A stretch of 64,000 nt of DNA from Eledone cirrhosa (Eukaryota), in assembly GCA_964016885.1 (NCBI GenBank), contig OZ024741.1:45756001-45820000 (forward strand), given 5' to 3'. Below are positions 20,368 to 56,287 of this stretch, in pieces. Position 1 is the stretch's first letter; each line of letters opens with the position of its first letter. The notes beneath the pieces were generated by a model. It had not been told where the DNA came from and made no database searches. It was given only the letters and a program-made list of their open reading frames with translations. The position numbers and the translations under genes were made by a program.

Positions 20368-22325
20368 TATACACATACACACACACATATACACACATAT
20401 ATATATATACATATATACACATATATATATATATATATAAATATATATACAGACTTATCTACGGTATCTACCAACCTTACCATAAACCCAACCAAAATTT
20501 ACACTACATACACTCACAATCTAATCACCCTAAATCTATCCTTAAAAACCTTGCATATAATATATCACTTAGAATTTCTAACCTTTCGTCTAACCAAGAT
20601 GTATTTGATAAAAATGCGACCTTTTATAACGAAGCTCTAGCTAGAAGTGGCCACAAAAATAGATTAGTATATATACCTTCTACCAATAACACTACAAACA
20701 TACAACCTAATATTACCAACAGACACCAAAGGAAAAATACACACCTAAATGCCACTCACACTATACCCCAAAACACCAACATAAAACCAAATTTCTCTAA
20801 CTCTTCTAATATACAGTATAGTAACTCTCAAAAAACTACTCATCATACAACTCTAATAAATGTTAATAATAAAACTCCTAATAAACAAGCTAAAACACCT
20901 AAATCAATAAATCTAACTAAAAATGTGTGTGGTGAGGTCATTAACAATAATTCTCTTAATAAACATCAGGATGCATCCTATAAAAACAATAAACAACATC
21001 GAAACCGTAATAGACGAGTTACTTGGTATAATGCTCCATTTAATTTACAAATTAAGGATAATATACCTAAAAAATTCTTTAATATCCTAGAGAAAAACTT
21101 CCCGCCAAACCACAAATACCATCAAATCTTAAATAGATCAATGGTTAAATTCTCCTACTCAACAAACAAAAACATAAAACAAAATATAAGTGCCTATAAT
21201 GCATATAAATGTAAAAGAACCATGAGTATACCACCAGTACATCAAACTAACCATAATATCTCCTCAGATACAGGATTCACGAAAAGTTGTAACTGTAGAA
21301 ACAAGGCAAACTGTCCATTAAAAGGAAATAGCCTTGTTAATAACATAGTATATAAATGTAAAGTTAACACTAAGGACTCAATTTATTCATATATAGGAGC
21401 TACCTCTAACAAATTTAAGGTAAGATTTAATACCCACAAACATAATTTTAAAAATGCCGCACTAGCTAATACAACATCTCTAGCTGAAATAATTAATAGT
21501 TATAGAAAGAGGAATATAGATTATGACCTGACCTGGAGTGTGCTCAAAAAGGCCACCCCTTATCAAAATAGTAGATATGAATGTAGATTATGTTCCCAAG
21601 AACTTTTTGAAATAAGGAAATCTAAGGATATCCTATTAAATAAGCGACAGGAATTAATAATATCGTGTAATCATAAACTGAGAAAAACCTTTAAATATTA
21701 TAAACCTAATTAATATACACTTTAGAAATTAATATATAAACTATTTTTTAATTTTTTAATTTAGTTAACCCATAATTAATATTCTACTACTGATGAACTA
21801 CATAATTCTGCTTTAAATATTATAAACCTAATTAATTTACACTTTAGAAATTAATATATAAACTATTTTTAATTTAGTTAACCTATAATTAATATTCTAC
21901 TACTGATGAACTACATAATTTTGCTTTCCTTCTTACAACTATCATTTCCTAAAACTGATACCATTAAGTAAACATATATAATGCTTTAACTTCATGTTAT
22001 GACTCTATGTTCCTTGAAAACTATATATATTTATTATTTCTCACTAATAAATTTAATCCCCCCCCCCCCAATAATTATATGTATATGTAAGTGTGTATGT
22101 GTGTATATATATATATATATATGTATTTCTTCCCTAAAATAATCCTTCATTCATAATATTCTTTTCCATCCAAAACTGAAATCTACCTTCCTCTACCCAT
22201 AATTTAAGGTTCTTCTACTACTATATTACTATCTTGACCCTCACTATCTCTCTATTGGTCAATTCAAAACCTGTTCCCAAACAGACCTATTGTATTGAAT
22301 CTTTGTTTTTTTCAATAAACAAATA

Positions 22326-28479: not shown

Positions 28480-29395
28480 CTAAAAGTTTAACAAGGTTCA
28501 TTGATTAATCAATGAATAAAGTTTTACAATAGATTAGAAGCACTCATATTAACGGCTAGGCGAACCTTGATTAATTTTAATAATGATTTTCGGACTCGTT
28601 CTGATAGGCATAAAAAGTTCGACATTACCATGGGATCGTCCGATTCTGCGCAGGTCACCGAACTTCTGGGAATTTTCCTCCTTAATATTATAAATAGAAA
28701 ATTGCCGGAGATTACCGGTGGTTTATATAGAGATGATATATTATTTACTGTAGTTAAACATAGCAATAGTGAACTAAATAGGGTAAAGAAAACAATTATA
28801 GAATTCTTTAAAAATTATGACCTGAAATTAGAAGTAGAAATATACAGTAAAGTAGTTAACTTCCTTGATGTCACCCTTAATTTAAATTCAGGACTATATT
28901 ACCCCTTCCATAAACCCAATGAAAACCTAAATTATGTTAGCTTTCATTCCAACCATCTTAAATGTGTTAAAAATGCAATAGTCAATAGTGTTCAACAACG
29001 ACTAACTAGATTATCTGCTAACAAATCAATTTTTAATAACAAAGCTGGATATTATAATGAAGCGTTGCATAAGGCAGGATATAAAAATAATATTGAATAT
29101 CTAGATAATAGTATTTCTAATTATAAAATCAGAACTAAATCTGTTATTTGGTATGCACCACTAGCATCTTTAGCTATTAAAACACTCCTAGCACAATTAT
29201 TTTTTAAAGTATTAGCTAAATGTTTCTCCAGAACACATATATACTACTCTATCTTCAATAGACACACAGTTAAGCTATCTTACTCTACAATTATGAATAT
29301 GGCTCAAAACATTGCAAAAATAAATAGCAGAATTCTTAATTATAACCAACAGGTAATTTGTGATAATGACAATATTAATATTAACAATAATATTA
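28478..29395 (+). pseudogene. Naiad-like PLE reverse transcriptase fragment
   Basis: FDITMGSSDSAQVTELLG, GLYRDD, VNFLDVTLNL, PFHKPN, SNH, WYAP, FNRHTVKLSYS. Confidence 0.85.
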
Positions 29396-53446: not shown

Positions 53447-53586
53447 TATATATATTTATATATATATATATCCAAAATTAAGATAAATTAAATGAATTTA
53501 ATCTAAATCGAAATTGTGGGTGTCATGTCATAATGACATGCGCCATATCGCCTGGAAATAAGCTCAAAGATAAATCCGAGCATTTT

Positions 53587-54065
53587 ATAATAACTAGAAA
53601 TTGATTAACATATAAATATACATGAATAATCACAGGAGATAATTTTTACACGCGTGTAACCACGCATAGCTAGTTTGGGTAATAATTAAATTTATACCTT
53701 TAAGTATGATTAACCTTCTTTGTATATATTAAAGAAATATATTTCACCAATTAAAGAAATATATTTCACCAATTAATCAGATGGTAGCGGCCAGATGAGG
53801 ATTTAAACTCGTTGTGTAAGGATGGATAGCTGGACATTATTACTCTTCCTTGTTGACAATCCAATAATATCTACTTTCCGTGACTTACCATCTGATTAAT
53901 TGGTGAAATATATTTCTTTAATGGGATATATACAAAGAAGGTTAATCATACTTAAAGGTATAAATTTAATTATTACCCAAACTATCTATGCGTGGTTACA
54001 CGCATGTAAAAATTATCTCCTGTGATTATTCATGTATATTTATATGTTAATCAATTTCTAGTTAT

Positions 54066-54068
<3 letters not shown>
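53587..54068. repeat. Fold-back element (arms about 190 bp); diverged copy at 52515-52810
   Basis: ataactagaaattgattaacatataaat...cagatggta vs taccatctg...atcaatttctagttat. Confidence 0.85.
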
Positions 54069-54098
<30 letters not shown>

Positions 54099-54218
54099 TC
54101 CAAGACACTGCTTAATTTACAGGTATTGACCGCTCATTCAGTTAATGTGCAAACGTTTTAAGTACAATCAATAGTGTTACTTTTAACATCCATCCAATAA
54201 ATATTGTGTCCTTGTGTA

Positions 54219-54254
<36 letters not shown>

Positions 54255-54261
<7 letters not shown>

Positions 54262-55332
54262 AAAGTTTTATTTAAGATTGTTGGGTTACAACGAGTAAAT
54301 ATTTTATAACTGATATAAAAGCACTCAACAGTTTCTGGAGTAGATTTACGATATTAAACAAATGGAAACTATATTTATCAAACCATATTTATTTCGTTAT
54401 ATATATTTCTGGGATATCATATTAAAAATATGTTATGCCTTCCTCAGACAAAATACAATACATAAGCTGTTTTATAGATTTGAAGACTCTGTCTAGGTCT
54501 GAGGCATTTTCATTTACGTTAGATTTAGATTTATCAAAGTGGAATGCACGCCACCTGATTCTCCTTATAAAGGAGTCTGATTTATCTATTAGTTGTTTAA
54601 TAAAGTCCTTGTTTCTAGGTAGAGGTATGTCTTTTAGAGAAGAAGAGATCTTAAAGAATTCCATTTTTTTCAGTTATAATATAAAGCGCTCAACGGTATT
54701 GGAGCAAAATATATGCAAAAGTTTTATTTAAGATTGTTGGGTTACAACGAGTAAATATTTTATAACTGATATAAGAGCACTCAACAGTTTCTGGAGTAGG
54801 TTTACGATATTAAACAAATGGAAACTATATTTATAAAACCATATTTATTTCGTTATATATATTTCTGGGATATCATATTAAAAATATGTTATGCCTTCCT
54901 CAGACAAAATACAATACATAAGCTGTTTTATAGATTTGAAGACTCTGTCTAGGTCTGAGGCATTTTCATTTACGTTAGATTTAGATTTATCAAAGTGGAA
55001 TGCACGCCACCTGATTCTCCTTATAAAGGAGTCTGATTTATCTATTAATTGTTTAATATAGTCCTTGTTTCTAGGTAGAGGTATGTCTTTTAGAGAAGAA
55101 GAGATCTTAAAGAATTCCATTTTTTTCAGTTATAATATAAAGCGCTCAACGGTATTGGAGCAAAATATATGCAAAAGTTTTATTTAAGATTGTTGGGTTA
55201 CAACGAGTAAATATTTTATAACTGATATAAAAGCACTCAACAGTTTCTGGAGTAGGTTTACGATATTAAACAAATGGAAACTATATTTATAAAACCATAT
55301 TTATTTCGTTATATATATTTCTGGGATATCAT
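54255..55332 (-). mobile_element. About 2.4 tandem copies of a 456-bp Naiad-derived unit (HHR, 5' UTR, ORF start)
   Basis: Unit starts at 54255, 54711 and 55167; ORFs 54422-54664 and 54878-55120 begin SLKDIPLP...LIDKSDSFIRRIRWRAFHF, a PLE N-terminus; HHRs at 54390-54455 and 54846-54911. Confidence 0.85.
54390..54455 (-). ncRNA. Type I hammerhead ribozyme (second copy at 54846-54911)
   Basis: Minus strand: TATTTTGT-CTGAGGA-AGGCATAACATATT-ttt-AATATGATATCCCA-GAAAT-ATAT-ATA-ACGAAATA. Confidence 0.7.
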
Positions 55333-56287
55333 ATATATATATATGGAACTGGAGCAGCAGGAAATTAAATATCTTGTTCAAGGACACAATATTTATTGGA
55401 TGGATGTTAAAAGTAACACTATTGATTGTACTTAAAACGTTTGCACATTAACTGAATGAGCGGTGAATACCTGTAAATGAAGTGTACATTTTTTTTCTGA
55501 AGAGAAAAGGGCCAGTGTCTTGGAAGTTTTATCCTTGTTGGAACCTGCTTATTTATGAAGTTCATTTCTAGCATAGCCATGGTTTCATGCTTAATAGATG
55601 AACGTAGAGTTTATATTTTATGTGTGTAAGGTTATAAGGATGAGGTATAGATATATACAACATGACTGGCAAGCGACTCAGCGACCGTATCTGTATCCGT
55701 GAGCTGCTCAACATTATCATATGTAGACCAAGTACATCAATTGTCAAGTCAAGATACTCAAACTATACGGTCATATAAAAGATCAACTCGTGGTGTGAAG
55801 GAAGGTTGGCTGGTAAGAGGAGCAGAGGTCGGCAGCCAAAACGATGGCTTGATAATGTCAATATATGGACGGGACTTGATGTTTGCTGTTTAAACTCTGC
55901 TACTGGTGATCGAACTTTGTGGAGAAGAATATCTCATGTTGAGGCCCAGTCTGCAACTGGCGGAGTTTAGCGTCAAAGTAGTAGGTAGCATATATATATT
56001 CAATAATAACATGATTTGTAATCGAATAACTGTGGCTTTGTATTGATTAGAAAGCAGTCGTTTACGCAAAAGTTTAATAAATAAATAAAATTTTATGAGG
56101 TAAAAGAATGTCGTATGTTGAAAGAAGTGATTTTATACTGGGAAGAATCATCTACGGAAATGGTGGGTAATGTCTGGTGAAGGAATTATAATTGCATGTG
56201 TGTTTATTCCCAAATTAGTCATAAGTAGAATGAAGAATTAAGGTGTGTTTGACAAGGAAATTAAGTCATTACTAATATCTGGGTGTG

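What the first reader, a model, noticed from the sequence alone, without database searches (positions are those of the whole stretch)
54255..55332. 456-nt tandem mini-Naiad: HHR, 5' UTR and 80-aa micro-ORF, a candidate circular-RNA replicon
About 2.4 near-identical head-to-tail units inserted in (TA)n. On the minus strand each unit has an intact-core HHR with an 8-bp stem I, then a UTR, then an ATG-initiated ORF. The ORF encodes the Naiad-like N-terminus and reads into the next HHR before stopping. Cleavage at consecutive HHRs would release a unit-length 456-nt RNA. Partial-multimer insertion is what rolling reverse transcription of a circle would give, as proposed for retrozymes. This would directly link an autonomous PLE to a retrozyme that retains coding capacity (inference).
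Basis: partly seen in the sequence, partly recalled or inferred. Interest (0 to 1): 0.75.

Follow-up and report, generated by a model that had tools for sequence, protein, structure and literature searches.

The report
One-off tandem mini Hydra-Penelope retroelement
This is a single shrunken copy of a known kind of animal jumping gene (Hydra-type Penelope, not Naiad), repeated 2.4 times and carrying a predicted self-cutting RNA; it was likely made when the element's copying enzyme went round a short template more than twice, and no second copy was found in this genome assembly.

Summary
The 456-bp array is real: 2.36 units, about 99% identical, between (TA)n tracts. The parent is a 3.72-kb Penelope-like element of the Hydra clade (RT, then C-terminal endonuclease), not Naiad. 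Each unit is the parent with 3,268 bp deleted at an 8/10 microhomology. The 80-aa ORF is the leftover N-terminus (63 codons) plus 17 codons of 3' UTR. Only two hammerheads are complete. The family fold covaries, but this subfamily has an A·A mismatch closing stem II and a predicted sequestered core. Plain local duplication is still not the best reading. Two sister loci (285- and 270-bp periods) repeat their deletion junctions within fewer than two periods, which tandem duplication alone cannot make. They lack the hammerhead core, so a hammerhead inside the unit is not required. Best reading: a dead-end product of reiterative reverse transcription of a short deleted template (0.55); local duplication 0.3. 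No RNA data were available. This scan had already reassigned similar 'Naiad' calls in this genome to Hydra on other DNA.

The parts
54259..55334 (-). Whole array: 163-bp 5'-truncated pLTR-like piece plus two 456-bp internally deleted bodies, ending at the family's long 3' end
55172..55334 (-). Partial unit (unit positions 294-456): 3' half of a hammerhead plus tail; no CUGAGGA core
54716..55171 (-). Full unit 1 (3 private substitutions)
54260..54715 (-). Full unit 2 (2 private substitutions)
54878..55120 (-). 80-aa ORF, copy 1: 63 codons of the parent RT N-terminus fused to 17 codons of 3' UTR
54422..54664 (-). 80-aa ORF, copy 2
54926..54935 (-). Deletion junction 1: ORF joined to 3' UTR at an 8-of-10 microhomology; 3,268 bp of the parent missing
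54470..54479 (-). Deletion junction 2, identical to junction 1
54846..54911 (-). Type I hammerhead 1 (8-bp stem I, long stem II closed by A·A, palindromic stem III); predicted cleavage between 54854 and 54853
54390..54455 (-). Type I hammerhead 2; predicted cleavage between 54398 and 54397
54398..54853 (-). The one hammerhead-to-hammerhead monomer (456 nt) that the array could release; predicted only
54221..54258 (.). (AT)19 tract at the element's 3' end (target microsatellite)
55335..55345 (.). Short (TA)n at the 5' junction
54111..54214 (.). 98%-identical inverted copy of the opposite flank (55379-55482), specific to this locus

Best explanation
The array is an internally deleted, single-locus derivative of a Hydra-clade Penelope-like element, likely written into a (TA)n tract in one integration event in which the family's reverse transcriptase copied a 456-nt deleted template 2.36 times. 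Shown: parentage, the deletion, the single locus, the normal 3' end and the 5' truncation. Inferred: copying began at the family's usual 3' start, ran back through the hammerhead, crossed the deletion junction into the ORF start and leader, went round again and stopped at unit position 294. The template was most likely a small circular RNA; re-use of one short linear template by end-to-end jumps at the 8/10 microhomology would give the same DNA. The product is a dead end: it has not seeded other loci, the micro-ORF is a remnant, and the hammerhead may be a passenger.
For: All other matches cover unit positions 1-246 or 237-456 separately (71 matches from 40 scored candidates). The unit's positions 1-239 and 241-365 differ at 0-2 sites from full-length copies L034-L036. 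The two full units share no private change; their 5 differences are each private, a Bayes factor of about 2 for 'made at once'. Sister locus L174 has a 285-bp period, about 1.6 turns, (TA)n on both sides, two deletion junctions each present twice, and ends at the family's short 3' end. Sister locus L264 ends in a 270-bp period of about 1.3 turns with one chimeric junction present twice. Fewer than two periods cannot come from plain tandem duplication, so this family group does re-copy rearranged short templates. Only 4 of 100 sampled copies begin within about 15 nt upstream of the cleavage site and none begins at it, so copying normally runs across that site. That fits a circle or an uncut RNA.
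Against: No deleted donor locus exists in the assembly, and a hammerhead-made circle needs one. pLTR + 2 bodies is also exactly what unequal crossover between the 163-bp direct repeats of a 1.36-unit insertion gives. DNA-level duplication acts on this family: a 3-unit block is duplicated in L072 and a block of about 1,050 bp with flank is triplicated in L264. A recent inverted duplication of flank sits beside the array. The mutation test is weak. This hammerhead is predicted to misfold (core unpaired with P 0.01, against a mean of 0.72 for 44 A-U siblings) and the 456-nt circle is not unusually self-paired (z -0.94).
Confidence: 0.55

Rival explanations
1. An ordinary insertion of pLTR + one deleted body (deletion made by one RT jump or by later DNA repair) was duplicated locally by unequal crossover or slippage between its 163-bp direct repeats; no circle and no repeated copying.
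For: Junction unique to this locus. The geometry matches exactly. Single deleted bodies occur among the 100 ORF starts examined: L193, L198, L231, L274, L279. DNA-level duplications are seen in L072 and L264, and many two-copy tandems lie in this window.
Against: Needs two events close in time, since no private mutation is shared. None of those five single deleted bodies is duplicated. L174 and L264 show that repeated junctions arise without tandem duplication.
Confidence: 0.3
2. One reading: a hammerhead-processed 456-nt circular RNA that propagates as a retrozyme and keeps a functional micro-ORF.
For: Two complete hammerhead cores 456 nt apart with palindromic stem III suited to dimer cleavage (sequence; PMC4209133). 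The family fold covaries. The unit keeps both 3' start sites and the ORF 5' end, which is the protein-binding region in another Penelope-like element (PMC11167929). The A·A subfamily has 1,166 exact hits, so the mismatch does not block transposition.
Against: One locus only. No other near-identical hammerhead-bearing tandem among the 263 loci held minus overlaps. Weak predicted fold. The ORF is a truncation remnant with an upstream ORF ahead of it, and a released RNA would be uncapped. 8 of 9 Xenopus retrozyme dimers did not cleave in vitro (bioRxiv 10.64898/2026.07.22.740005).
Confidence: 0.1
3. Assembly artefact that duplicated one unit.
For: No read or contig spanning the array was available to confirm it.
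Against: The units differ at 5 sites, none a family variant, spread over both units.
Confidence: 0.04

Closest known systems
Hydra clade of C-terminal EN+ Penelope-like elements (Craig et al. 2021, PMC8557442)
   Same: Parent ORF has RWR (RWK motif), DKT, CxCX5C linker, CxxC and CxH, C-terminal endonuclease region, (TA)n target, hammerhead near the 3' end, partial tandems and inverted copies.
   Different: Parent is 3.72 kb with a 3' UTR of about 1.4 kb (published Hydra are generally under 3 kb). Stem II arm is longer (31 nt between core halves). The array itself lacks RT and endonuclease.
Naiad clade (same paper)
   Same: (TA)n insertion bias and pLTR/partial-tandem structure.
   Different: Naiads have an N-terminal GIY-YIG, a DKA motif and no canonical hammerhead; the parent has none of these traits.
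Metazoan non-LTR retrozymes (Cervera and de la Peña 2020, PMC7229834; Li et al. bioRxiv 10.64898/2026.07.22.740005)
   Same: Head-to-tail units of a few hundred bp, low GC, a type I hammerhead in each full unit; meets Li et al.'s structural rule of two consecutive units with complete motifs.
   Different: Single locus rather than a family; keeps the parent's leader and 63 ORF codons; monomer not highly self-paired; circles and cleavage untested.
Non-autonomous Chlamys elements such as MRC1 (PMC8557442, passage)
   Same: Non-autonomous Penelope-like derivatives forming multicopy head-to-tail insertions.
   Different: Those are active multi-copy families similar to their parents mainly at the 3' end; this is a one-off that also keeps the 5' end.

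Membership tests
Naiad PLE | N-terminal GIY-YIG endonuclease before RT | tested here: not met
   Parent 741-aa ORF starts with the helical RWR region and RT; the endonuclease-type motifs are at residues ~600-740. The GIY-YIG call rests on motif reading; Pfam hit 2 of 32 aligned relatives and not the parent itself.
Naiad PLE | DKG motif modified to DKA | tested here: not met
   Parent has DKT.
Naiad PLE | No canonical hammerhead | tested here: not met
   86 of 100 sampled family copies carry a full core with stems I-III.
Hydra PLE (parent) | RWK motif, DKT, CxCX5C linker, CxxC and CxH, C-terminal EN | tested here: met
   RWR, DKT, CNCRDRSKC, CDLC, CRH against the description.
Hydra PLE (parent) | Telomerase-like RT | tested here: met
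   Top fold-search hits of the predicted model are TERT structures.
Hydra PLE (parent) | (TA)n insertion and 3' hammerhead | tested here: met
Hydra PLE (parent) | Placement inside the Hydra clade in an RT tree with published references | not tested
   Published Hydra proteins were not available as stored sequences; the assignment is by motifs.
Non-LTR retrozyme | Tandem units each with a complete type I hammerhead | tested here: met
   Two consecutive complete motifs; the third is truncated.
Non-LTR retrozyme | Dispersed multi-locus family | tested here: not met
   Junction found only here.
Non-LTR retrozyme | Non-coding, highly self-paired monomer | tested here: not met
   80-aa remnant ORF; fold z -1.13 linear and -0.94 circular.
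Non-LTR retrozyme | Self-cleavage and circular RNA in vivo | not testable with these tools
   No RNA run was listed.

The most novel reading that the evidence does not exclude
Hydra-type Penelope-like elements reverse-transcribe circular RNAs made by hammerhead cleavage and ligation, and this array is a retrozyme caught at birth: a 456-nt hammerhead-to-hammerhead circle from an identifiable parent subfamily, copied 2.36 times. Sister mini-arrays whose units begin at the predicted cleavage site (L174, 285 bp; L072, 97 bp) would be circles closed between a hammerhead-cut 5' end and a broken 3' end, giving genomic evidence of cleavage in vivo and of rolling-circle integration, which would also explain pLTRs.
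Probability: 0.3. Interest if true: 0.7.

Novelty: new variant of a known kind. Interest (0 to 1): 0.42.

Why it matters
How Penelope-like elements make their partial tandems, and whether their hammerheads act in vivo, is open: an in vitro study found cleavage dispensable for insertion (PMC11167929), while retrozyme papers propose rolling copying of circles (PMC7229834). Mini-arrays in which a unique deletion junction is repeated within fewer than two periods are a direct genomic mark of reiterative copying. This locus and its sisters give short substrates with a known parent for testing that. As an element in its own right, the array is a one-off dead copy of modest interest.

Tried and rejected
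Rfam scan of the window: no hit. Pfam and solved-structure sequence searches with the parent ORF: none. Sequencing runs: no RNA holder listed; no listed contig or read bridged the junction, but these were short contigs and RAD-seq with holes on the ORF side, so they say nothing about presence or copy number. A genome-wide gapped pattern for hammerhead tandems of any period could not be run, so tandems were sought only in listed hits and fetched loci. A BLAST-based map of 5' ends timed out; the k-mer replacement is confounded by inverted pieces, so I used direct inspection. Idea that 5' ends pile up at the cleavage site genome-wide: rejected. Raw counts were 109 at the site against 64 and 48 at two control offsets, and about 17 of 30 inspected hits were small deletions in stem III with the hammerhead still upstream. 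Those deletions could be ligation scars but are equally explained by AT-repeat slippage. Splicing as the source of the deletion: no GT-AG at its ends (read). Flank-duplication survey (7 of 99) is confounded by inverted element partners and was not used. 13 same-strand hammerhead pairs under 3.3 kb were neighbouring insertions of different subfamilies, not tandems.

Full report
Observation. Tandem Repeats Finder gives period 456, 2.4 copies, 99% matches at 54253-55334. On the minus strand (unit position q1 = 55171) the array is a partial unit q294-456 (55334-55172), two full units (55171-54716, 54715-54260) and then (AT)19. Each full unit has an 80-aa ATG ORF whose stop lies in loop II of a type I hammerhead: 8-bp stem I, CUGAGGA, a 31-nt stem II arm, GAAA and a palindromic stem III. 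The partial unit lacks the core, so there are two complete hammerheads and one releasable 456-nt monomer.

Parent. Every other genomic match covers q1-246 or q237-456 but not both in this order. In many loci q237-456 is followed by q1-246 and a continuing ORF. The full element is 3,724 bp in L037 with a 741-aa ORF. The predicted model's best fold matches are telomerase RTs. The protein shows RWR, DKT, CxCX5C, CxxC and CxH motifs with the endonuclease-type region at the C-terminus. These are the diagnostic features of the Hydra clade in Craig et al. 2021 (PMC8557442, section 11). Naiads have an N-terminal endonuclease, DKA and no canonical hammerhead (section 6). So 'mini-Naiad' is wrong. The assignment is by motifs, not by a tree. 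I reached it before seeing that earlier notes of this scan made the same correction on other DNA of this genome.

Anatomy of the unit. The unit is the parent with 3,268 bp removed between ORF codon 63 and a point about 20 nt upstream of the hammerhead, at an imperfect 8-of-10 microhomology. The micro-ORF is therefore 63 parent codons plus 17 codons read from 3' UTR. The array ends at the family's long 3' end and is 5'-truncated, the ordinary pLTR + body layout with one extra body. Positions 1-239 and 241-365 differ from full-length copies L034, L035 and L036 at 0, 1 and 2 sites, so the source subfamily is young and identifiable.

Is it a family? The junction 27-mer with up to 2 mismatches has 2 hits in 3.0 Gb, both in this array. 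For scale, the hammerhead 20-mer has 5,356 exact hits, the tail 32-mer 25,772, this hammerhead variant 1,166 and the ORF start 274. All 40 other exact pLTR/body junctions were fetched; none leads into a hammerhead-bearing deleted tandem. Of the first 100 of 274 ORF-start hits, all examined, only this array and L174 repeat the start within 1 kb. Five are single deleted bodies with other junctions (L193, L198, L231, L274, L279).

The hammerhead. In the first 100 tail hits, 86 have a full core; N7 takes all four bases; 75 of 86 close stem II with A-U, 5 with A·A as here. On 43 distinct variants (short-arm deletion variants left out) 96% of cells pair, 3 stem II pairs change on both sides, and slid controls pair 35-52%; these are related sequences, so this is support and not a probability. 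Published Hydra hammerheads often have a mismatch at this position (supplement of PMC8557442), so A·A is not disqualifying. In this variant, however, the core is predicted to pair with the 3' side of stem II (C3-U4-G5 unpaired with P 0.01; hammerhead-like fold 3.4 kcal/mol above the minimum; A-U siblings mean 0.72 and 2.05). The 456-nt circle folds no better than shuffles (z -0.94, 60 shuffles), unlike the highly self-paired retrozyme circles described in PMC7229834.

How the array arose. Two routes give this exact geometry: repeated copying of a deleted template in one event, or a 1.36-unit insertion duplicated later through its 163-bp direct repeats. The five differences between units are all private and no private change is shared; this favours one event only about 2 to 1. 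Stronger evidence comes from sister loci. L174 is a 285-bp period of about 1.6 turns between (TA)n tracts; a 41-nt ORF deletion and an ORF-to-tail junction are each present twice, and it ends at the short 3' end. L264 ends with a 270-bp period of about 1.3 turns with a chimeric junction present twice. Tandem duplication cannot give fewer than two periods, so this family group re-copies short rearranged templates during integration (inference). Both units, and the 97-bp nine-copy array in L072, lack the hammerhead core, so a hammerhead in the unit is not needed. The L174 and L072 units begin at the predicted cleavage site (within 1 nt), and neither was found by a search for that site; L264 begins about 6 nt downstream and was found through a control pattern at that offset. 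This hints at cleavage in vivo but rests on two loci; genome-wide, 5' junctions are not clearly enriched there. Against this, DNA-level duplication is also documented in L072 and L264, and a 98% inverted copy of flank lies beside the array. I give one-step reiterative copying 0.55 (about 0.3 a true circle, 0.25 end-to-end jumps), local duplication 0.3, a functional coding replicon 0.1.

Comparison with print. Retrozymes as non-autonomous derivatives of Penelope-like elements is proposed in PMC7229834 and argued phylogenetically in bioRxiv 10.64898/2026.07.22.740005, which also suggests local amplification of terminal sequences. PMC11167929 found internal initiation and no need for hammerhead cleavage in vitro. 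In five searches I saw no listing that describes repeated deletion junctions in sub-two-period arrays as evidence for reiterative copying; the library is incomplete. Seen: PMC8557442 abstract, passages, sections 6 and 11, and part 2 of 59 of its supplement plus a term search; the bioRxiv paper parts 1-3 of 5 (its supplements, listing retrozyme families, were not seen and could hold ORF-bearing examples); PMC11167929 parts 1-2 of 4; PMC7229834 part 2 of 6 and passages; PMC4209133 part 1 of 4; PMC3846280 passages. Hammerhead numbering and the GIY-YIG fold layout are from my own knowledge.

Verdict. A real but one-off mini-element of a known clade, mislabelled as Naiad and not shown to be a replicon. 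Its value is as one of a small set of arrays that bear on how Penelope-like elements copy their RNA. Interest 0.42; new variant of a known kind.

Noticed in passing
L174:2387-2852 (G000:C1 near 377,086,000): 285-bp period mini-array of a sister subfamily, about 1.6 turns; two deletion junctions each repeated; unit starts at the predicted hammerhead cleavage site and lacks the core.
   Followed up: yes
L264:5125-5465 (G000:C4 near 319,066,700): 270-bp chimeric mini-unit of about 1.3 turns without hammerhead; its first part also lies in a block of about 1,050 bp, with flank, present three times.
   Followed up: partly
L072:4041-4933 (G000:C26 near 23,054,700): 97-bp x 9 array starting at the predicted cleavage site, with a duplicated 3-unit block; preceded by inverted and forward pieces that share a deletion removing the hammerhead.
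   Followed up: partly
L274:3818-4561: Single deleted body of the same A·A subfamily (ORF position ~641 joined to the 3' end) with intact hammerhead; not tandem.
   Followed up: partly
L243/L244, L252/L253, L259/L260: Inverted partner copies share small deletions ending at the cleavage site; possible ligation scars or AT slippage already present in the template.
   Followed up: partly
window 54111-54214 and 55379-55482: Locus-specific 98% inverted duplication of flanking DNA on either side of the array, with a further short jump.
   Followed up: partly
window 53586-54069: Another 99% inverted pair (144 bp arms) ending in (TA)n, possibly the ends of a different Penelope-like family.
   Followed up: no
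window 21282-21371 and 28546-29339: Old fragments 68-72% identical to the parent's RT region.
   Followed up: no
family-wide: Two fixed 3' ends 90 nt apart (unit positions 366 and 456), usually one on each arm of inverted insertions.
   Followed up: partly
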